DNA from: Thermodesulfovibrionales bacterium
GTDB lineage: Bacteria > Nitrospirota > Thermodesulfovibrionia > Thermodesulfovibrionales > Dissulfurispiraceae
Assembly (NCBI GenBank): GCA_041653575.1
Contig: JBAZFD010000001.1
Location: forward strand, 1 to 26,612
Length of the DNA: 26,612 bases
Reading direction: 5' to 3'
Shown: positions 1 to 22,335 of the stretch, one piece after another
Layout: each line of letters starts with the position of its first letter
Numbering within the stretch: the first letter of the stretch is position 1
Program-made: the position numbers and the translations under genes
The notes under the pieces: generated by a model
Databases searched by the model: none
The model's input: the letters and a program-made list of their open reading frames with translations, nothing else
Told to the model about the DNA's origin: nothing

Positions 1-1005
1 CACCCCCTGTATCGGGAAGGCTGAAGGCTGAAGGCTGAAGTCGGCGAGACCGGGCAGATTAAAACGGATGACCCCGTCTTTAAACCATGCGCCCTTCACC
101 TCTTTCTCCCTGCTGAAGAAATAGATCTCAGGCATTCCCTGGCCCCTATTTTTTTCCTCCTGGACCTTTGACCCTTGCCCCTTGACCCTTTTAACGATCT
201 CCCCGGTCATCGGGTCGTCTGCATTGAGCAGCAGGAAATCCCCTGCCCCCTGGTTCATGAAGACCCTGCACTTCGCATCAGTATACTCCTCCATGGAGCT
301 GTACCTGTCGAGGTGATCAGGGGTGATGTTCAGGATAGTCGCCCCTTTGGGCCTGAAGGATGCTATTGTCTCCAGCTGAAAGCTCGACACCTCGGCGATG
401 ATAAAGAGAGGGTCAAGGGGCAAGGGTCCAGGGTCCAGGGAAGACAAAGAAAGAGGGGCAAGTTCTCCCTTGCCCTCATCTTCTTCTTTCTTGACCCTTG
501 ACCCTTGACCCTTGACCCTTTCATAGATCTCCTCTGTCAGGGCATAGCCGATGTTGCCGCCCAGGAGGGTATTAAAACCTCCGGCCTTCATCATCTCTGA
601 GACCAGCATGGTGGTGGTGGACTTCCCGTTCGTCCCTGTGATGGCCAGGAATTCCGCTCTCTGACTGTCGACTGTTGCCTGTGGACTGTTGACTGTCATA
701 TAGGCCAGCTCCAGCTCGCCGATGATGGGGATACCCCTCTCGGCAGCCCTTTTCAAAGGCGGTATGGAGAGGGGGACTCCGGGACTGATGACAATAAGAT
801 CAGCCTCGGTGAAGAGCTGCTCAGGATGGCCTCCTGCCTCTTTTTTCACCTCCGGTAAAAGCCTGGACAGGAACTCCTCCAGCTCATGGGCAGGCCTCCT
901 GTCCGTTACCGTTATCTCTGCGCCCAGACTGCTGAGGAGGTTTGCAGCCCCTGCCCCGCTCCTGGCTATACCCACCACTGTCACCCTTTTCCCTCTGAAA
1001 TCCAT
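1..1005 (-). CDS. murD: UDP-N-acetylmuramoyl-L-alanine--D-glutamate ligase MurD, 3'-truncated by the window edge
   Basis: Hand translation of the minus strand is open from ATG 1005 (alternative ATG 1011; AGAAAGGA upstream) to position 1. MurD motifs: VVGIARSG, ISPGVP, IIGELELAY, AITGTNGKSTTT (P-loop), GGNIG, EVSSFQLE, LNITPDHLDRY, LNADD, IQGV(HN). Absent from the ORF track because there is no stop in the window. Confidence 0.96.
   Translation of the reverse strand, partial: MDFRGKRVTVVGIARSGAGAANLLSSLGAEITVTDRRPAHELEEFLSRLLPEVKKEAGGHPEQLFTEADLIVISPGVPLSIPPLKRAAERGIPIIGELELAYMTVNSPQATVDSQRAEFLAITGTNGKSTTTMLVSEMMKAGGFNTLLGGNIGYALTEEIYERVKGQGSRVKKEEDEGKGELAPLSLSSLDPGPLPLDPLFIIAEVSSFQLETIASFRPKGATILNITPDHLDRYSSMEEYTDAKCRVFMNQGAGDFLLLNADDPMTGEIVKRVKGQGSKVQEEKNRGQGMPEIYFFSREKEVKGAWFKDGVIRFNLPGLADFSLQPSAFPIQGV
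16..40. repeat. (GAAGGCT)x3.5 tandem heptamer inside murD
   Basis: gaaggct gaaggct gaaggct gaag at 16-40; on the coding strand encodes FSLQPSAF. Confidence 0.9.
160..190. repeat. Degenerate (CTTGACC)x4 tandem heptamer inside murD
   Basis: ctggacc tttgacc cttgccc cttgacc ctt; encodes RVKGQGSKVQ on the coding strand. Confidence 0.9.
409..520. repeat. Inverted pair of heptamer arrays forming a long imperfect hairpin inside murD
   Basis: 411-438 ggtcaag gggcaag ggtccag ggtccag is the degenerate reverse complement of 490-517 (CTTGACC)x4, which is perfect. Inner arms gaggggcaag / cttgccctc close a short loop. Reading frame is preserved. Confidence 0.9.
663..697. repeat. Degenerate (GACTGTY)x5 tandem heptamer inside murD
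   Basis: gactgtc gactgtt gcctgtg gactgtt gactgtc; encodes TVNSPQATVDS between ELELAY and the P-loop strand. Confidence 0.88.
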
Positions 1006-1040
1006 TGTCATCCTTTCTCTGATATCCTTTTATACTGCTT

Positions 1041-2210
1041 CTATGACCTGCCCTCAGTCTCCCTGTTCTGGACGGAAAGCCCCTTGCCTGAGGGCTTCTT
1101 CTTTGCCTTCTTCTCGGAGACCGAGACAACAGCCTTCTTCTTATTCTTGCCAGCCTTTGCTATGGCTTTTTCCTTTTTGTACTTCTTCTTTATTTTGGCT
1201 AAAGCCTTGCTCTTTGCAGATGCCTTCTTTGCCTTGGCGAGCCGCGCCCTCCTGTCGGCCTTCTTCCCTGTGAGCTTGTGCGAGACCTTTTTCTGGGGTG
1301 TGTAGGAGGCATGGACAACGCCCGGTCTCTTTACTGGACTGAAATAGATCATGGGCTCAGACTTCTGGGCCATGATATCCTCACCGCGGGAGAGGAGGAA
1401 GGCGGTGTCATCCCAGAGCCTGCTCCTTACGCTCTCACCGAGGAGCACGGTAATAAGCGTCTCACCCTCCTTCTCCCCGGCGCAGACGAGGCAGTGGCCT
1501 GCGGCCCTTGTGTACCCTGTTTTTCCTCCCAGGACCTCGGCGTCGGACCAGAGGAGCTCGTTGGTGTTTTTGAAGAAGAGCCGCCTCCCCTCCATGGTGT
1601 ATATGTCCTTGGTCCTGGTGTTGATGATCTCCCTGATGATGGGGTATCTCAGGGCTGTCTTCATGATGAGGGAGAGCTCATAGGCTGTGGTGTACTGCTC
1701 TCCCGGACCGGGAAGCCCTGAGGCGTTGATGAACCGGGTGTTCTCCAGGCCCAGACGGCTGACCTTATCGTTCATCATCCTGGTAAAGCCCTCCTCACTC
1801 CCTGCCGATGCCTCGGCGAGGGCAACGGCAGCGCCGTTCACGGACCTCATGAGGGCGATATAGAGAAGGTCGTGCACCTTCAGCCTCTCCCCCTCTCTCA
1901 GGTGAGGACTGACCGAAGGAGTCTCAGCAGCGTTTTTGCTTATGGTAACAACGGTCTCGGGATGGAGCCTGTCGAGGGCAACCATGGCTGTCATCACCTT
2001 CGTGGTGCTGGCAGGGGGGAGCTTGGTATTGGGGTTTTTGGCATAGAGGATCTTCCCCCTGCTGCCTTCCATCACAAGGGCGGCGCGGGCGCTCACCTCA
2101 TCGGCTGAGGCGTTTTGAGCAATAAAAAAAAGGCAGAGGAGAGAAAAAAGACCCGTCCATGCCCCCCATGACCGATTATCCATGACCTTCAACCCATGCC
2201 GCTTACCCAT
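1041..2210 (-). CDS. D-alanyl-D-alanine carboxypeptidase (peptidase S11, low-MW PBP) with Lys/Ala-rich C-terminal tail
   Basis: SxxK (PASTTK), SxN (RSVN), NASGL and KTG (GGKTGYT) motifs; N-terminal hydrophobic signal or anchor; SD AAGGAGGT 5 nt before ATG 2210. Confidence 0.92.
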   Translation of the reverse strand: MGKRHGLKVMDNRSWGAWTGLFSLLCLFFIAQNASADEVSARAALVMEGSRGKILYAKNPNTKLPPASTTKVMTAMVALDRLHPETVVTISKNAAETPSVSPHLREGERLKVHDLLYIALMRSVNGAAVALAEASAGSEEGFTRMMNDKVSRLGLENTRFINASGLPGPGEQYTTAYELSLIMKTALRYPIIREIINTRTKDIYTMEGRRLFFKNTNELLWSDAEVLGGKTGYTRAAGHCLVCAGEKEGETLITVLLGESVRSRLWDDTAFLLSRGEDIMAQKSEPMIYFSPVKRPGVVHASYTPQKKVSHKLTGKKADRRARLAKAKKASAKSKALAKIKKKYKKEKAIAKAGKNKKKAVVSVSEKKAKKKPSGKGLSVQNRETEGRS

Positions 2211-15499: not shown

Positions 15500-15529
15500 A
15501 ATTTAGCGTGAGGGGGAGTTTGTTGTCAA
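15500..15529 (-). promoter_or_regulatory. sigma70-type promoter for icd
   Basis: TTGACA (15529-15524) - 18 nt - TAAATT (15505-15500). Confidence 0.55.
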
Positions 15530-17380
15530 ATCAGGAAAGGAAAGGAGGGAGGGGCGGAGGCCCCTCCCTGAAGAAAGAAGAGAAAGATGCTGCTGTGCCG
15601 GCAGTTGCTGTTTCTGAAGCTGCCCTTTTTTGAAAATCATATCCCGAAGAAGGCCGGATACTTTGGCGGCAATGGCCTTTTTGTAGGGATTGTCCTGACC
15701 CGGAAGCGCGATAATCCAGTCGCTCAGTCTCACAACTTCGGGATCAGCTCCTTCCGTTATTCTCACGATGTAACATCCCTTGGAGGCGTACCTCTGCCCC
15801 TGCCCAAAGCTGAGACGGGGATAGGAAATAGCCGTATGAACCTGGTCCCGGAGGGAGTCCAGGGTGTCGAGGAGATAGTCCCTGTAAAGATAGGGTCCCA
15901 TAGACCGGATTGCCCCTGCCACAATCCGTACGGAGGAGAGGACCTGCATTTGCAGATCAGCCTCTCCCACGGGTATTCCTTTTGTCTTCAACCAGGCTGT
16001 CATGACGTCTTTGCTTTGGCCGTATTCCTTCGGGAGCTTGCGGGGATAGGTGGCATAGGTGAATCCCCGGATTGTATCGGGCAATGAAGACAGCTTCATG
16101 TTCATAAGGGTTGAAGAGACAAAGACGCAGAAAGGCCTTTCAGGGATCTCGCCCAGAATCTTCATGGAAGGGATATCCTGCTCATCCAGCCAGAGGACAA
16201 AAACGCCGCCCTTGTATTGCCTTGCCAGTTTCTTCCAGAATGTCTCTGACAGCTTCTCCTCCTTTGCCAGGACAACGGTTTTGAGGAGCTCCGTTGGTCC
16301 ATCCCAGCTCTCCCGCAGCCCCCTGTCAAGGAGAGCGCCTTTTTCTCTGTCACGGTAAACCTGGACTACAGGCGTGCCGCCGGTTTTGACAGCCCTGTTG
16401 AGATACCTCGCCACGGTAACGCCCTCCTGGTAGAGCCCCCTGGAGGAATAGAGGGTATACCAGTCTTTTTCTGCGATGACAGGCAGGTCGGTAAGGGGAA
16501 AGAGGCTGGGAATCCGCTGCTCCTCGCTGAACCTGTGAATCGGCTCCCAGTCACCCCTGACTCTCCCGCTCACAATGGCAAAGACAGGCTCCTTTTTGTA
16601 ATACTCCTCAAGCTGGCCCTTCCATGTCTCGCGGGCCCCTTTCAGCTCCCAGAGGGAGAGCGTCACTTTCCCCCCATAGAGCCTGTTGCTCTCCGGGTCT
16701 AAAAACGACCCTTTCCATTTCTTTGGTCCGGGAGGCGCGTTGATGAGGTCAAAATAGCCTTGCAGGGTTTTCACCAGTGACGCCTTTTCCCCGGGGCTCA
16801 CGCCATCGCTGACCACTGTGGCGAACCGGAGGGTCTGTTCCGTTGCTCCCGGTGACAGCTCTGCTGAAAGGTTTCTGAGGTAATAGGAAAGGATCTCCAT
16901 ATCCCTGTCAGAGAGTGGATACATAGGCATGGCCAGGTTCAGCTCTCTCCCTGTAGGATCAATCCCCTCCCTCAGGGCCATTGCAAGCCTTTCGTCAGTA
17001 TAAGCGGGACGCGGGTGGCCGGTCTTCAGCCCTTTAAGAAGCGCCTCCCCAAAGGGCTGGACAGACTCCACCCCTGTCTCCACGGGGCTGAAGAGCCTTG
17101 GCCCGGTAATCCTTGGTGAAAAAAGAGACCCCTCCAAAGACCCCAGCCCGCTCCTCAGGTGACAGCTTCCACAGGTGAACATCTTTCCGTCCACCGTCAC
17201 CCCACCTCCAACAACCGCCTGCATGGGCTCTCCTGAGGAAAGAATCCCCTCGCGGTACATTCTTTCTCCCAAACGCAGTGCCTCATCATCAGTCAGTCCT
17301 GCTATCATAACGCACTCACCGAAGGAGAGGGTGCCAAGGAGAAAAACAAAAGCGGAGAGAAGTAAAACTATTTTTCCCAT
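15503..17380 (-). CDS. Exported monoheme cytochrome c fused to a periplasmic-binding-protein-like domain
   Basis: Signal peptide; single CxxCH (CGSCH); candidate distal Met (AMPMY); long C-terminal alpha/beta region resembling type I (branched-chain amino acid-like) substrate-binding folds (inference). Confidence 0.8.
   Translation of the reverse strand: MGKIVLLLSAFVFLLGTLSFGECVMIAGLTDDEALRLGERMYREGILSSGEPMQAVVGGGVTVDGKMFTCGSCHLRSGLGSLEGSLFSPRITGPRLFSPVETGVESVQPFGEALLKGLKTGHPRPAYTDERLAMALREGIDPTGRELNLAMPMYPLSDRDMEILSYYLRNLSAELSPGATEQTLRFATVVSDGVSPGEKASLVKTLQGYFDLINAPPGPKKWKGSFLDPESNRLYGGKVTLSLWELKGARETWKGQLEEYYKKEPVFAIVSGRVRGDWEPIHRFSEEQRIPSLFPLTDLPVIAEKDWYTLYSSRGLYQEGVTVARYLNRAVKTGGTPVVQVYRDREKGALLDRGLRESWDGPTELLKTVVLAKEEKLSETFWKKLARQYKGGVFVLWLDEQDIPSMKILGEIPERPFCVFVSSTLMNMKLSSLPDTIRGFTYATYPRKLPKEYGQSKDVMTAWLKTKGIPVGEADLQMQVLSSVRIVAGAIRSMGPYLYRDYLLDTLDSLRDQVHTAISYPRLSFGQGQRYASKGCYIVRITEGADPEVVRLSDWIIALPGQDNPYKKAIAAKVSGLLRDMIFKKGQLQKQQLPAQQHLSLLSSGRGLRPSLLSFPDLTTNSPSR
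15546..15569 (-). terminator. Terminator-like hairpin at the end of the MCO-SCO-cytochrome unit
   Basis: 10-bp stem AGGGAGGGGC-ggag-GCCCCTCCCT followed on the minus strand by a pyrimidine run (CCTTTCCTTTCC); lies inside the 3' end of the 625-aa ORF. Confidence 0.6.
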
Positions 17381-17955
17381 ACCTTATGATATTCCTCCTT
17401 CAATTCCTGAGTACTCATAAAACCAAACAGCCTTATCCAGTAGCCGTCATCAGGAGAGCGCAGAAGGGTGAGGGGGTAGTGGGACATTTTGTTTGGCACA
17501 TCGGTATAGAAGGCCTTCATAACAGCCTTGATCTCATCGCGCGATCCGGTGAGAAATTCCCACCCAGGCTTTGCATTGTACCTTTTCAGATATTCTTTCA
17601 TGACCTCAGGAGTATCATGATCAGGATCAATGGTTATGGAGACAAGCCGTATGTTTTTCAGATCCTGCCCCATCCTGTTCTGGAGGTTTGCATATCCTGC
17701 CGAAAGGATAGGACAGATAGTTGTGCATGTGGCATAAATGAACTGGAGGAATACAGGCTTTTCAGAGATGAGGATCTCTCTGAGCCGTACCCTTTGCCCA
17801 TTCTGGTTTGTCAGCATCAGATCCGGAACCTGATAGCTCGCAACGGTCCTTTCATACTTTTTCTTGTCCGCACCATGGGAGTCGCGGCTCCACAAAAGAA
17901 GCGATGGGACCAGCATGAGTATAATGACAAGGTTGATGAGACGCATCCTTCTCAT
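17368..17955 (-). CDS. SCO1/SenC family copper chaperone
   Basis: LTNQNG, FIYATCTTICP (CxxxC), VSITIDPDHDTP, WEFLTG, distal His (SHYP); N-terminal signal or anchor; SD AAGGAGG before ATG 17955. Confidence 0.92.
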   Translation of the reverse strand: MRRMRLINLVIILMLVPSLLLWSRDSHGADKKKYERTVASYQVPDLMLTNQNGQRVRLREILISEKPVFLQFIYATCTTICPILSAGYANLQNRMGQDLKNIRLVSITIDPDHDTPEVMKEYLKRYNAKPGWEFLTGSRDEIKAVMKAFYTDVPNKMSHYPLTLLRSPDDGYWIRLFGFMSTQELKEEYHKVWEK

Positions 17956-18064: not shown

Positions 18065-21000
18065 TCAGGGCAGTGTCGTAGCTGAAACCACATTACTGAA
18101 GGCAGAATTCCCGTCAGCATTAAATGCCCTGACACGGAACCAGTAGGTCGTGTTCGGTGTCAGGGTGCCGACGGTGAAGGTCGTTACGTCTGCTCCAACT
18201 TTAAACGACCTCACTACTGTCGTGAAACCGGAATCCCTCGCCCTCTGAATCCTGAAGCCGGTCTCGTTAGTAGAATTGTCCGTCCAGCTGATGTCAACAG
18301 AGGTGCTGGTCACAGTGCCTACGGTCAGATTACCCGGCTTCTGAGGCATCACGCCCGGAGTTGTGGCAGTGGCGGTATTTGACCATGCAGAGGCGCCTGC
18401 GACGTTAACGGCCTGCACCCTGTAGTAGTATGTCGTCTTGGGCGCAACCGTCGTATCAGTGAATGCCGTGACATTCACGCCAACCGTAAAGGTCGTCAGT
18501 CCCGCCGCGAAGCCTGCGTCAGTCGCCCTCTGAATCGTGAAGCCTGACTCGCTGGTGGCGTTGTCAGTCCAGGTCAGGCGCACTCGCGGCGGGTTCGAAC
18601 TGAGGGCAGAGGGAGTGGCAACCAGTCCCGTGGGCGCTGCCGGAATTGCAATTGTGATTGTGACTGTTGCCGTTCTTGACCATACGGAATCAGCAGACTT
18701 GGTCGGAAATCCGACAGACGGAGCCGCGTACTGATAGGTGTCTCCCACAAGGTTAGAGGCCCGCACCCTGTAGTAATAGGTCGAGCCGGCCGTTACGCTT
18801 CCGTCCCTAAAGGTAGTTGCATTGGCTGCAACCGTAACCGTTCTGTCAATCACCGCAAAACCGGCATCCTGCGACCTTTCAATGGTGAAGACTGTCTCGT
18901 TCAGAGAGTTGTCCTTCCAGGTCAACCTTATGTTCCCCGCAGCGGTCATGGCGGCGGAAAACCCGGAAGGGGCCTTCGGCGCTACCGCAAACACCAAGGA
19001 GTGCATCATGTCCATCTCTTCGTGGCTCAGGATGTGGCAGTGCCAGACGTATTCCCAGCCGAAGTTGACGTAATGATTTGTAACGGTCACCCCTTTTGCC
19101 GCCGGGTCCTTGAAGCCTCCAGGCGGTGTCGCTAAGACAGCGCCCTCAGGCATGGTAGGGTCTATCAGGCGGATGCTGTTGGGAATGTCGAAGGGTTGGG
19201 TAGGAGCAACCGGCCTCATCGCCACGATTGTATCCTCCAGCGGATTGACACGGACGGTTTCCTTCCAGCCCAGTTCGTTGGGATCGGGAGGCATGAGGAA
19301 ACCATCCCAGGCCACCCGGTTAATCAACTGCACGTTGAACAGATGGAAGTGAATTGGATGGGTGTCCACACCGTTGTGTGTGATCTTCCAGATCTGGGTC
19401 CCATCCGAAAGCGTCCCGATGGGGGTCATGGAATCCTGCATGACATCAACGGGCGGGCTGGAGTACCCGTAAAGCATGAAATTCTGGTTTACGTTGTTGG
19501 TGCCCGGCAGCTCGAGTCCCATCATTCCACTCATCCGTCCATACCCGGTGTCGTACGATTCGCCCATCTCGTCCTGGATCGCCTTTGGCTGGAAGGGAAT
19601 CGTCACCGGCGTTGCCGAACCGATTGGAGTAAAGGTTTTGGAGGTATCATAAATCTGTGCATATGCTCTATAATCGGCGGGGAAAGTCCCATTGTAGGCT
19701 GAATTATAACCGGCCTGGGGGATAATGACCGGGTCCTGTGAAACCTCCAGGACGCCTCTCTTATCAACTGTTTTCGCAAATGCCGCCCTCAGGGCATTCA
19801 GATCATAGGGGGTGGCAGCAGTTGAAGCAGCCACCCTGATCTGCATGATCGTGCGGGTGTTGGGACCATAGCCCGGCTGCGTTGTGGGAGCGCCGCCCGT
19901 GTCGGTCTGGTCGGGATTGCCCATGTAGTAGTCATAGCGCGGGTCGAGGGCCGGGAAGGCTGCTGGAGCGTCGTTGTAGACAATGATGGTTTTGCCTGCA
20001 TACTGCGAGAAGTCAACGATTACGTCCGCCCGCTCCGCAGGTGCGATGAGCAGCGAATGGTCCGTGACATTCCCGAAATTGAAGGCTGTTGCGTTCCTGT
20101 TCCAGTTGACCGGCTGGTTGGGAAGCACAACAGGAGCCGGCAGGAAACCGCCTTCTGTTCCGATCTGTACCCACGACGGGCCTGCTGTAGCAGGATCCGG
20201 CACACCGCCTGCCCTGCCGTCAGTTGGCCACTTTGCCGGGAAGCCGGGCGTCTGTACAGCCGGGACCATCTTGACCTCTGTATCAGTCCTGCCATCGGAG
20301 GTTGTGACAGCAGAGTCAGCCACGTACATCTGCAGGTTGAAAAACCGGTCATTTGCGGCGTTCAGTACCCGGAAGCGGTAAGCCTTGGGCTCCACATCCA
20401 GATAGGGGTAAACAGCGCCGTTCACGACAGGGGTGTCCATGAATGCCTCCATACCCATGGAAGGATCGGGCATGTCGGGCCTCATCGGCGGCTCACACCA
20501 CGTTACAGAAGGATCACAGTTGGGGTCGTAGTGTTCGTTCGGGACCGGCCCGTGGGCGATACCTGTGGTGGGCGGCCAGAACCATGGACCATACATCCAA
20601 CGGCCAAAGGCGTTTGCCCCGGTAATGTCATAGGGGTTCTGTGCCGGCATATAGACAGAAGGCAGCCAGAGGTCACCGGTCATCGCCATTCCCGGCATGG
20701 TCCCCCATCTCCAGGTGGGATCCTGGGCGGCTATGGTGTTGCTGTCCACGAAGGTCTTGTCCTGGATGATCAGCGGAATACCGGTACCGGGGAGAACACT
20801 GACTCCTGTGGGGTTGACGCCGGTCATATTAGTACCATTGATCAGGTCTTGCTCCACATTATCCGTCAGCAGGTACCCTGCTGCCTCTCCCGCATAGACA
20901 TTAAGGCGGGTAATGCCATAGGCATGGTCGTGGTAGAACATCAGCCTGGCGCTCTGCTGATTGTTATAGTAGAAAGTCAGCGACCCGTCGCCGGGATCAT

Positions 21001-22141
21001 TCGTCGCTCCCGCTGTTCCAGCCGGGACCGGCGCGTGAGTCACCGGATCAAACCACATGTCAGGGACGTATTGGACACTGACGCCCTTGGGATAGGAAGT
21101 GGTTTCTCCAGCCGGGGTGATCCACTGGTGGGGCGTACCGTCGCTGATCCAGGGAACCATGCCGCCGTGCAAATGAAGGGTGGCGCGATTCTGGGTGTAC
21201 ATGCTTCCATCAGGCGCCATCCCGGCTCCCATGACGGAGGTGTCCACCGGGAGGAAAAGGTCTCCGCCGGTACCGGTGGAGAGCTTGTTGGTGAACTTGA
21301 TGCGCACCGGGGTGTCCCGCTTGGCGACGATCAGGGGGCCCAGATAGTGAAACTGGCTTACGGTCGCATCTGTTGTATTGGTCTGCCTGTAGCCCCGCAG
21401 TGTGGTCGCAGGCAGATCGGAATGCAGCTGCTCGGAGTACTGGCCGAGCTCGATCTCGTAATAGTCTGATCCCGGATAGGTCGTCGTATCCGGGATCGCC
21501 ACAGGAATATATTTTCCAAGGGGGGTGCTTGCTCCGGCAGCCGTAAGACCAGGCAGTGAGTCAACGAATTTCCGGATGCCGCCAGAGAGAGCCCCACCTA
21601 TTGAGGCTGAGGCAATAGCGCCTGTTCCGGCGGTATCAGAGATAGCAACAACGGGAGCGGTATACCCGCTGCCGCCGGCATCAACAGTGATGCCGGTAAT
21701 GACACCACCTGCCACTGTTGCGGTAGCAGTAGCACCCGAGCCTGTGCCGTAAACATCAGAGATAGTGACAACCGGAGCGGTGTATCCGCTGCCCCCGGCG
21801 TCAACAGTGATGCTTGCTACCGCGCCCGTAGGCATCGGGCTGTTTGCGTAGTTGGCATAGGGACCGAAATAATGGGGTATCGGGCTGGTAGCGGGCATGG
21901 CCATGCCAAAGGATACGATATTACCTGAACCTGTCTTGGTTGCAGCTGCCCCAGGTTGAAAGCCGTGGGCTGCGGCATTATCTGCTGCGGCCTGCCGTTG
22001 AGCAGGCGTTATCCTCTTCATCTGTTCGGGGGATGAGGTATTGCCGGTAGCTGCTTGCGTGCTGGCAAAATCGAATCCCAGGAAAAGAGCCGCTACTGTC
22101 ACTATAAAACTCGTGAAGATCGAAAATTTGCGCCTCTTCAT
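18065..22141 (-). CDS. Large exported multicopper oxidase with three C-terminal fibronectin type III domains (Geobacter OmpB / Leptothrix MofA-like architecture)
   Basis: All four MCO copper motifs: [31 protein letters not shown] (T1 Cys, His and axial Met intact). Signal peptide with RRKF; three FN3 repeats (LTWxDNS/A...F.I.R...YYYRV.A.N); SD GGGAGGAG. Confidence 0.93.
21635..21812. repeat. Two ~58-bp direct repeats (120-bp period) encoding [18 protein letters not shown]
   Basis: 21635-21692 and 21755-21812 differ mainly at synonymous positions. Confidence 0.9.
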
Positions 22142-22335
22142 ATTCTCCTCCCTTTTTGTTTTCTCTCAAAATTGACCCTGCTGGCATCCATTTAGCCCTC
22201 TTTCATGAGCAGATCCGGACTTCACCTCACCACCTCCTGCCATTTTTATTGAGAACCTGCTTCATGAACGCCTCGTTAAACAACTTCTTCCTCTTTTTTC
22301 TTTGAAAAGGATTGTGATTATTGGGGCAAATAGAC

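What the first reader, a model, noticed from the sequence alone, without database searches (positions are those of the whole stretch)
16..697. Essential murD carries four in-frame tracts from three different heptamer-repeat families
Seen: within ~700 bp of murD lie (GAAGGCT)x3.5, two CTTGACC-family tracts and (GACTGTY)x5, and no comparable heptamer arrays were noticed in the rest of the 26 kb. Each sits between conserved MurD motifs (after ELELAY, after GNIG, after NADD, before G.HN) and leaves the frame open. Known analogies: STRR heptamer repeats in heterocystous cyanobacteria and Rickettsia palindromic elements inserted in-frame in housekeeping genes. Inference: a repeat-seeding or spreading process adds peptide to surface loops of an essential enzyme; a 7-nt unit would frameshift on slippage, so selection should favour degenerate, frame-preserving arrays, as seen here.
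Basis: partly seen in the sequence, partly recalled or inferred. Interest (0 to 1): 0.75.

Follow-up and report, generated by a model that had tools for sequence, protein, structure and literature searches.

The report
In-frame heptamer-repeat modules in murD
The cell-wall gene murD of an uncultured groundwater Nitrospirota bacterium really carries five short runs of 7-base repeats, two of them forming a long hairpin, all read through in frame. They are local copies of a genome-wide repeat class already seen in other bacteria, not something peculiar to murD.

Summary
murD (window 1-1011, minus strand, cut by the contig end) holds five period-7 arrays, not four. The arrays at 409-440 and 490-520 are inverted and form a ~120-nt hairpin. 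Independent assemblies from three other studies recover the tracts, so they are not artefacts. One strain differs by exactly 21 nt (3 units).

The tracts are not special to murD. This 2.3-Mb MAG has about 115 such arrays, most about 32 nt long and 83% inside ORFs (cbiD, carB, leuS, purL, uvrC and others).

In related genera the same four MurD positions carry heptamer arrays with different but related units. This points to old, inherited arrays that turn over in place.

Three sites add or vary loop length. The 38-aa hairpin insert is modelled as disordered. The fourth tract (16-40) replaces a native strand and adds no length.

Arrays occur only in relatives that also have PF05635 (rRNA-IVS protein) genes. 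Those genes are themselves bracketed by inverted 6-8-nt arrays.

Partial prior art exists: Geobacter metallireducens 4-5x heptanucleotide elements within genes (PMC2700814), Coxiella IVS heptamers (PMC4990558) and Xanthomonas/Nostoc heptamers (PMC4692102). This scan has found the same class before, including in Nitrospirota. The mechanism is unknown.

The parts
1..1011 (-). murD, first 337 codons. The gene runs off the contig start and continues on contig C98 of the same MAG, giving a joined length of 507 aa.
   Evidence: ORF list; Pfam PF21799 and PF08245. C98:3-149 overlaps at 98% aa identity. AF2 model matches solved MurD 3LK7 with TMq 0.71.
16..40 (-). Site 4 array, sense unit CTTCAGC x3.6, perfect, encoding FSLQPSAF just before the G.HN motif. 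It adds no net length compared with relatives that lack an array.
   Evidence: TRF; cross-genus DNA and peptide comparison. This unit occurs nowhere else in the genome. L021 has the same unit at the same site.
140..190 (-). Site 3 tract. The core array at 159-190 has sense unit AAGGGTC x4.6 (peptide RVKGQGSKVQ), with degenerate units continuing to about 140. It is a copy of half of the site 2 hairpin, including flanks.
   Evidence: TRF. 94% complementary to 409-439 with the same order of variant units. Aligns with 471-546 over about 75 nt. A soil strain has a 21-nt deletion at 147. Two haplotypes differ at 141-149.
409..440 (-). Site 2 hairpin, arm in the stop-prone orientation. It is degenerate and encodes LDPGPLPLDP.
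   Evidence: TRF; inverted repeats I1 and I3.
441..489 (-). Hairpin spacer. It is itself self-complementary, purine-rich then pyrimidine-rich.
   Evidence: RNA fold of 395-535: -75.7 kcal/mol, z = -6.3, with the stem running through the spacer.
490..520 (-). Site 2 hairpin, perfect arm with sense unit AAGGGTC x4.4 (peptide RVKGQGSRVK). The whole insert is about 38 aa (residues 165-202), is absent from most relatives and solved MurD structures, and is modelled as disordered.
   Evidence: TRF; alignments; pLDDT below 50 for residues 170-199.
663..697 (-). Site 1 array with sense unit (G/A/C)ACAGTC x5, i.e. five ACAG cores separated by variable 3-nt spacers. It encodes TVNSPQATVDS between the N-terminal domain and the P-loop strand, and is a 10-aa insert relative to solved MurD structures.
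   Evidence: TRF; phmmer against PDB; pLDDT 68 for residues 111-120. A related strain has 5 of its 25 substitutions inside this 35-nt array.

Best explanation
The five tracts belong to a lineage-restricted, genome-wide class of short tandem-heptamer modules. A typical module is about 32 nt, roughly five conserved cores spaced 7 nt apart. Modules occur singly or as inverted pairs that form long hairpins, and they are tolerated inside genes as long as the frame stays open.

In MurD they occupy four positions that tolerate sequence change: the link between domains 1 and 2, two positions in the central domain, and the strand before G.HN. These positions carried arrays already in the common ancestor of this Nitrospirota family.

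Since then the arrays have turned over in place. Units mutate, are re-homogenised within each array, and are sometimes copied within the gene. Length changes survive only in multiples of 3 nt, such as 21 nt (3 units). Selection removes in-frame stops, which is why the arm in the stop-prone orientation is degenerate.

The arrays are translated as low-complexity loops. The hairpin gives a disordered 38-aa loop.

Shown: the arrays are real, genome-wide and in frame; the sites recur across genera; units are related at a given site; strains differ by 21 nt; arrays co-occur with PF05635 cassettes that have the same arm build.

Inferred: vertical inheritance with in-situ homogenisation, and translation of the loops. 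What generates the 7-nt periodicity and the roughly 5-unit length is not known.
For: - Genome-wide class: 118 period-7 arrays of 3 or more copies, against 3-43 for periods 5-12. After merging there are 115, with 95 inside ORFs (ORFs cover 87% of the genome). The modal length is 31-33 nt.
- Housekeeping hosts include cbiD, carB, leuS, purL, nadE and uvrC.
- Inverted pairs are common. The murD hairpin folds at -75.7 kcal/mol, z = -6.3.
- No conserved flanks surround the arrays, so they are not part of a larger element.
- Variable positions cluster within the unit: 60% fall within a 3-nt arc against 48% under the null, p = 0.002.
- The same four MurD sites carry arrays in most of 20 relatives.
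- Units at the same site in different genomes are closer (cyclic Hamming distance 2.54) than units at different sites (3.36); 0 of 5000 permutations reach this.
- Independent assemblies span the tracts. One has a 21-nt deletion in tract 140-190. Another has 5 of 25 substitutions inside the 35-nt array 663-697 (Fisher p = 0.009).
- The MurD fold and all catalytic motifs are intact, and the insert has low confidence. murD is the only copy in the MAG.
- PF05635 link: the only PF05635 gene of this MAG has inverted 8-mer arrays around it. In 16 of 17 PF05635 loci from relatives the gene is bracketed by inverted 6-8-nt arrays.
- Seven genomes without PF05635 have 1 array in 580 kb sampled. Six genomes with it have 46 in 600 kb.
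- In print: 4-5x heptanucleotide elements within and between genes of G. metallireducens, including MTYCTGA, the reverse complement of this genome's top family (PMC2700814). GACAGAT/GACAGAA heptamers sit next to the PF05635 ORF in the Coxiella IVS (PMC4990558).
Against: - All relatives belong to different genera (MurD 50-63% identical), so orthology of arrays rests on position and unit similarity, not on traceable descent. Shared constraints of a site could also make units similar.
- Kin are not independent, so the permutation and Fisher values overstate significance.
- The narrow 31-33-nt length mode is not what simple slippage predicts and remains unexplained.
- The PF05635 association comes from small samples (60-200 kb per genome). 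One genome with 4 PF05635 genes had no array in its 60-kb sample although its murD has six.
- The own MAG has only one PF05635 gene, with 8-mer arms unlike the murD units.
- No transcript or protein data show that the loops are translated.
Confidence: 0.7

Rival explanations
1. A mobile hairpin element (MITE- or RPE-like) has recently and independently inserted into permissive MurD loops in each lineage. The sites recur only because few positions tolerate insertion.
For: - The 409-520 insert is a near-perfect 120-nt palindrome absent from most relatives.
- The site 3 tract is a copy of half of it, including flanks.
- Perfect arrays look young.
- PF05635 cassettes with the same arm build resemble autonomous partners.
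- One sediment contig may lack 57 nt between the arms (weak, only 21 nt of support on one side).
Against: - Copies share no conserved termini, flanks or target duplications.
- Units differ between sites within one genome but are related between genomes at one site.
- The site 4 unit is unique in the genome yet shared with a relative that is about 51% identical in MurD.
- No transposase-like activity is known for PF05635 (own knowledge).
Confidence: 0.2
2. The arrays are functional nucleic-acid sites kept by selection: binding sites for a multimeric protein or regulator, G-quadruplexes, or RNA hairpins that modulate mRNA stability or translation speed at domain boundaries.
For: - Periodicity persists over family-level divergence, where neutral arrays should decay.
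- The fixed length of about 5 cores and the conserved-core/variable-spacer pattern fit a binding site.
- AAGGGTC arrays have four or five G3 tracts, like the G4-forming GGGAATC repeats (PMC4692102).
- The Geobacter authors read such elements as global regulator sites.
- CspB binds heptamer repeats, one protein per unit (cited in PMC4679880).
Against: - Dozens of different units coexist in one genome, so no single sequence-specific reader fits.
- The most common family, CAGAAGN, cannot form a G4.
- Arrays are spread through unrelated genes in proportion to coding density, with no positional pattern.
- Related families of the same order lack arrays entirely.
Confidence: 0.15
3. The tracts are phase-variable contingency repeats that switch murD on and off by slippage of 7-nt units.
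For: The unit length is not a multiple of three, and two arrays are perfect.
Against: - murD is the single-copy essential ligase of this MAG.
- The arrays are short (3.6-5 units).
- Four assemblies from different studies all keep the frame, and the only indel in a heptamer tract is 21 nt.
- The same arrays stay in frame in about 20 genera.
Confidence: 0.02
4. The tracts are assembly artefacts of a fragmented MAG.
For: The contig ends 15 nt from one array. C1 and C98 overlap across it, and assemblies break at the tracts.
Against: - Contigs from rhizosphere, soil and sediment studies span the arrays at 88-100% identity without frame-breaking indels in the tracts.
- Relatives from independent projects have arrays at the same sites.
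Confidence: 0.01

Closest known systems
Multicopy 4-5x tandem heptanucleotide elements of Geobacter metallireducens (Aklujkar et al. 2009, PMC2700814: GGACCGG family of 49; MTYCTGA class-3 paired sites)
   Same: Modules of four to five tandem 7-nt units. [quoted passage not shown] Some are paired on opposite strands. MTYCTGA is the reverse complement of this MAG's commonest family, TCAGAAG.
   Different: They come from a different phylum and were interpreted as regulator or RNA sites. The paper gives no analysis of reading frame, orthologous sites, turnover or PF05635. The murD units here (AAGGGTC, CTTCAGC, ACAGTCN) are not the Geobacter consensus.
STRR heptamers of heterocystous cyanobacteria, and GGGAATC / GGGGAYT heptamers of Xanthomonas and Nostoc (Rehm et al. 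2015, PMC4692102)
   Same: Dispersed tandem 7-nt repeats in several families, with a preference for about four units. Convergent inverted pairs are frequent, and there are G-tract-containing units. The unit AACAGTC of tract 663-697 is a cyclic permutation of STRR3 CAACAGT (own knowledge of the STRR consensus).
   Different: Those repeats are over-represented between genes and under-represented in coding regions. Here 83% lie inside ORFs and are read in frame.
23S rRNA intervening sequences carrying an S23p/PF05635 ORF (Coxiella burnetii, Warrier et al. 2016, PMC4990558)
   Same: A long stem made from inverted repeats. Tandem heptamers GACAGAT/GACAGAA vary in copy number between strains, and this is the same unit family as this MAG's AAGACAG/ACAGATG arrays. 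In this bacterial family PF05635 genes are bracketed by inverted 6-8-nt arrays.
   Different: The murD hairpin has a 49-nt spacer and no ORF. It lies in an mRNA, not in rRNA, and it must be translated rather than excised by RNase III.
Rickettsia palindromic elements (RPE; own knowledge)
   Same: Palindromic DNA inserted in frame in essential genes and read through as extra surface peptide.
   Different: RPEs are families of conserved 100-150-bp sequence. Here the copies share only the architecture (tandem 7-mers), not sequence or termini.
TAACTGA direct repeats of Beggiatoaceae, cyanobacteria and Bacteroidetes (MacGregor 2015, PMC4679880)
   Same: Heptamer direct repeats of 2-6 copies with a patchy cross-phylum distribution. 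A stop-containing orientation restricts their coding use.
   Different: A single unit dominates, and the repeats lie mostly in 5' untranslated regions.

Membership tests
Dispersed 4-5x tandem heptanucleotide modules (Geobacter metallireducens type / STRR-like) | Tandem 7-nt unit, about 4-5 copies per module | tested here: met
   TRF gives 3.6-5.0 copies in murD. The genome-wide length mode is 31-33 nt.
Dispersed 4-5x tandem heptanucleotide modules (Geobacter metallireducens type / STRR-like) | Many copies across the genome, both within and between genes | tested here: met
   115 arrays: 95 in ORFs, 4 at ORF edges, 16 intergenic. Period 7 far exceeds other periods.
Dispersed 4-5x tandem heptanucleotide modules (Geobacter metallireducens type / STRR-like) | Frequent pairing on opposite strands | tested here: met
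   The murD pair 409-440/490-520. Further pairs occur in cbiD, carB and other ORFs.
Dispersed 4-5x tandem heptanucleotide modules (Geobacter metallireducens type / STRR-like) | Same unit consensus as the published families (GGACCGG, MTYCTGA; STRR1-3) | tested here: inconclusive
   The genome's top family TCAGAAG is the reverse complement of MTYCTGA. Of the murD units, only ACAGTCA matches a published consensus (STRR3, from memory).
IVS-type PF05635 hairpin cassette | PF05635 ORF in the loop of the hairpin | tested here: not met
   The murD hairpin spacer is 49 nt and holds no ORF. The only PF05635 gene of the MAG is on C102.
IVS-type PF05635 hairpin cassette | Stem formed by inverted tandem short repeats | tested here: met
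   Arms at 409-440 and 490-520. 16 of 17 PF05635 loci in relatives, and the own C102 locus, have such arms.
IVS-type PF05635 hairpin cassette | Excision from the RNA by RNase III | not testable with these tools
   No RNA data could be laid. The open frame through the hairpin argues for translation, not excision.
Rickettsia palindromic elements | Copies share a conserved consensus of about 100-150 bp | tested here: not met
   Flanks of about 40 arrays of one family show no shared sequence, and units and spacers differ between copies.
Rickettsia palindromic elements | In-frame residence in housekeeping genes as extra surface peptide | tested here: met
   A 38-aa insert with pLDDT below 50 sits in an otherwise confident MurD fold. 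Other hosts are listed.
Phase-variable contingency SSR | Copy number differs between strains by single units, shifting the frame | tested here: not met
   Four assemblies keep the frame. The only indel in a heptamer tract is 21 nt; the other indels listed are compensating single bases at 297-301, outside the tracts.

The most novel reading that the evidence does not exclude
The heptamer modules may not be passive junk. They may be written or re-homogenised by a dedicated system linked to the PF05635 (Avd/IVS-protein) four-helix-bundle genes. The idea is that a pentameric protein reads five 7-nt-spaced cores, which would explain three things: the fixed module length of about 32 nt, the persistence of perfect periodicity at the same sites of essential genes across a whole bacterial family, and the restriction of arrays to genomes that carry PF05635. 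That would be a new kind of genome-shaping element acting inside essential genes. The pentameric state of Avd is from memory and was not tested here.
Probability: 0.2. Interest if true: 0.8.

Novelty: new member of a known kind. Interest (0 to 1): 0.5.

Why it matters
The finding shows that an essential enzyme can carry a 120-nt perfect hairpin and four other 7-nt repeat arrays in frame, and that such arrays stay at the same protein positions across a bacterial family while their unit sequence drifts.

This gives a natural system for three questions. How is short-repeat periodicity maintained (concerted evolution versus selection)? How do low-complexity loops arise in conserved proteins? What are the long-puzzling rRNA intervening-sequence proteins (PF05635) and their heptamer arms doing?

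There are practical consequences too. These arrays break short-read assemblies, as this contig end shows. They also inflate apparent loop insertions in MAG-derived proteins.

Tried and rejected
- Assembly artefact: rejected, because independent contigs span the tracts.
- Phase variation: rejected, because there are no +/-7 variants, only a 21-nt indel, and the gene is single-copy and essential.
- Larger conserved element around the arrays: looked for shared flanks or target duplications in about 40 CAGAAG-family arrays and found none.
- G-quadruplex as the unifying principle: it fits the AAGGGTC arrays but not the dominant CAGAAGN family.
- Peptide-level selection as the origin: rejected, because a 7-nt unit is read in three frames, so DNA periodicity cannot come from an amino-acid repeat. 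Only site 4 shows a conserved peptide pattern.
- Register shift in a related strain: the 5 substitutions in array 663-697 could be read as a one-unit register shift. That reading saves only about 3 changes and is left open.
- 57-nt skip between the hairpin arms: seen in one sediment contig with only 21 nt of support on one side, so it is not used as evidence.
- Naming close relatives: the search for related loci gave only one useful hit, MAG 'Nitrospiraceae bacterium SURF_23'.
- Literature: searches for heptamers in Thermodesulfovibrio or Nitrospirae found nothing relevant.
- Full-length MurD structure: the joined C1+C98 protein was not sent for prediction because it is not encoded letter for letter by one locus. 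Only residues 1-337 were modelled.

Full report
**What is there**

The window is the whole of contig C1 of a fragmented MAG (2.33 Mb, 390 contigs, 78% complete, 54.8% GC). Its nearest named relative is 'Nitrospiraceae bacterium SURF_23'. The best-holding run, probably the source sample, is a groundwater metagenome.

murD lies on the minus strand at 1-1011 and runs off the contig start. It continues on contig C98, which overlaps the first 149 nt. That overlap has four differences, three of them in the outer units of a heptamer tract, so two haplotypes coexist and the assembly broke there. The joined protein has 507 aa, and murD is the only copy in the MAG.

Upstream in the window lie a Peptidase_S11 carboxypeptidase, mraY, murF/murE-type ligases, ftsI and rsmH, a normal dcw cluster.

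**The observation**

Tandem Repeats Finder finds five period-7 arrays: 16-40, 159-190, 409-440, 490-520 and 663-697. It finds no other in the window. A strict lag-7 test finds 3 segments in murD, none in the other 25.6 kb, and none in 2000 codon shuffles.

This array is the inverted partner of 490-520. Together with a self-complementary spacer they fold into one hairpin of about 120 nt (-75.7 kcal/mol, z = -6.3).

Array 159-189 is 94% complementary to 409-439 and has the same order of variant units. Tracts 140-215 and 471-546 align over about 75 nt including flanks. The site 3 tract is therefore an intragenic copy of half of the hairpin.

**Not an artefact, and how it varies**

Logan contigs were laid on 1-1100.
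- A groundwater run, probably the source, matches exactly.
- A rhizosphere contig spans 366-1004 with 25 substitutions and no gaps. It carries the hairpin and array 663-697, and 5 of its substitutions fall in that 35-nt array (Fisher p = 0.009).
- A soil contig spans 1-344 with a 21-nt deletion at 147, exactly three units, inside tract 140-190.
- No +/-7-nt variant was seen.

**Not special to murD**

The genome has 118 period-7 arrays of three or more copies, against 3-43 for periods 5-12. After merging there are 115: 95 inside ORFs, 4 at ORF edges and 16 intergenic, with ORFs covering 87% of the genome. The length mode is 31-33 nt.

Two unit superfamilies dominate: CAGAAGN, and (A/C)AGGG(T/G)C. 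In coding DNA the sense strand almost always carries the stop-free orientation, giving peptides such as QKSEVRS and KGQGSRV. Inverted arms, which would contain in-frame TGA if perfect, are degenerate.

Hosts include cbiD (6 arrays), carB (4), leuS, purL, nadE, uvrC and transporters. Flanks of about 40 arrays share nothing, so the array is the whole element. In imperfect arrays the variable positions cluster, which suggests a conserved core plus a variable spacer.

**MurD in relatives**

I aligned the protein with 19-20 orthologues from other genera of the same family and order (50-63% identity) and with solved MurD structures.
- Tract 663-697 is a 10-aa insert between the N-terminal domain and the P-loop strand.
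- The hairpin is an insert of about 33-38 aa after the GNIG helix.
- Tract 140-190 lengthens a variable helix and loop after NADD.

An AlphaFold model of residues 1-337 has mean pLDDT 82.7 and matches solved MurD (3LK7, TMq 0.71). It has pLDDT below 50 at residues 170-199 and 287-289, and 68 at residues 111-120.

Tract 16-40 is different. Order-level relatives without arrays have a segment of the type 'L-I-x-x-D-E-I-x-I-K-G-V-H-N' of equal or greater length. The array therefore overlays a native strand and adds no loop.

**The same four sites recur**

TRF on the relatives' murD genes shows arrays at the same four positions in most genera of the family, each with its own unit.
- Site 4: CTTCAGC in this MAG and in SURF_23, CCTTCAA, AACCTTC, CTTCCGA/CTTCTGA, GGACTTC.
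- Site 3: AAGGGTC, AGAGTCA, TCAAAAA, AGTTAAA, which track genome GC content.

Units at one site in different genomes are closer (mean cyclic Hamming distance 2.54) than units at different sites (3.36). None of 5000 permutations reaches this difference. Units at different sites within one genome are not close either (3.11).

The site 4 unit occurs nowhere else in this genome. I read this as old arrays inherited at fixed positions and homogenised locally. Kinship inflates the statistics, and shared site constraints are an alternative explanation.

**Distribution and the PF05635 link**

Leads from earlier notes of this scan were tested here.

Sampled DNA from relatives gave these array counts:
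- G008: 24 period-7 arrays in 200 kb.
- G006: 16 in 100 kb.
- G019: 3 in 100 kb.
- G001: 2 in 80 kb.
- G025: 1 in 60 kb.
- G002: 0 in 60 kb.
- Seven genomes with no PF05635 gene: 1 array in 580 kb in total.

A Mann-Whitney test on these densities gives p = 0.003, uncorrected for phylogeny.

In 16 of 17 PF05635 loci from three relatives, the gene is bracketed within tens of nucleotides by inverted arrays of 6-, 7- or 8-mers, and the unit differs between cassettes. The single PF05635 gene of this MAG has inverted 8-mer arms. In G008 and G006 the cassette arm units (AGGCTGA/AGGCTAT; TGAATAG; GCAAAGG) are also among the commonest dispersed units.

**What is in print**

- Warrier et al. 2016 describe tandem GACAGAT/GACAGAA heptamers, variable between strains, next to the PF05635 ORF in the Coxiella 23S IVS. 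This is the same unit family as AAGACAG/ACAGATG here.
- Aklujkar et al. [quoted passage not shown] They also list five-unit MTYCTGA sites, presented as strand-paired, which is the reverse complement of TCAGAAG.
- Rehm et al. 2015 report a four-unit preference and convergent pairs for GGGAATC, mostly between genes.
- MacGregor 2015 reviews heptamer excess and TAACTGA repeats.

The kind of element is therefore known, though never explained. I found no paper on it in Nitrospirota. This scan has reported the same class before in Omnitrophota, Patescibacteria and Nitrospirota.

**Mechanism**

The most likely reading, at about 0.7, has four parts:
- These are resident, inherited heptamer modules.
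- They turn over in place.
- Selection lets through only stop-free, frame-keeping states.
- They are translated as tolerated loops.

A dedicated PF05635-linked process that writes or homogenises five-core modules is possible (about 0.2) but untested.

Recent mobile insertion (0.2) and a nucleic-acid function under selection (0.15) remain open. Phase variation and artefact are excluded.

Two things are unexplained: why 7 nt, and why about 32 nt.

Noticed in passing
G000 contig C39:10600-10698 (not in window): A perfect 14-copy CCTGACT array runs into the contig end. It is the longest heptamer array in the MAG and another case of an assembly break at such repeats.
   Followed up: no
G000 contig C32:11339-11614 (not in window): A 276-nt array of 7-8-nt units (CCTCCAAC / CCTTCAAC), about 33 copies, far longer than the usual 32-nt modules.
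   Followed up: no
G000 contig C102:1351-1840 (locus L032): The only PF05635 (23S rRNA IVS protein) gene of the MAG. An 8-mer array TTGGTGAA lies at 1351-1386, its inverted partner at about 1408-1435, then the gene, then a further TTCACC-type array at 1811-1840.
   Followed up: partly
window 1041-2210 (-): A Peptidase_S11 D-Ala-D-Ala carboxypeptidase sits between murD and mraY in the dcw cluster. It has a C-terminal tail of about 90 aa that is very rich in lysine and alanine.
   Followed up: no
window 15506-17383 (-): A 626-aa ORF with a good coding score but no Pfam match at E <= 1e-5.
   Followed up: no
window 18068-22165 (-): A 1366-aa protein with a C-terminal fibronectin type III domain and weak multicopper-oxidase matches.
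   Followed up: no
window 141-149 versus C98:1-9: Two haplotypes of the outer units of tract 140-190 coexist in the source assembly...ATAGGGGCCAGGG... versus ...CAAGGGGCAAGGG... on the sense strand.
   Followed up: yes
L057 (G006:C5:268154-271468), locus coordinates 1387-2327: A PF05635 gene is surrounded by about ten short AGGACTG / CTCAGTC arrays spaced about 45-55 nt apart, a denser and more regular arrangement than a simple pair of arms.
   Followed up: no
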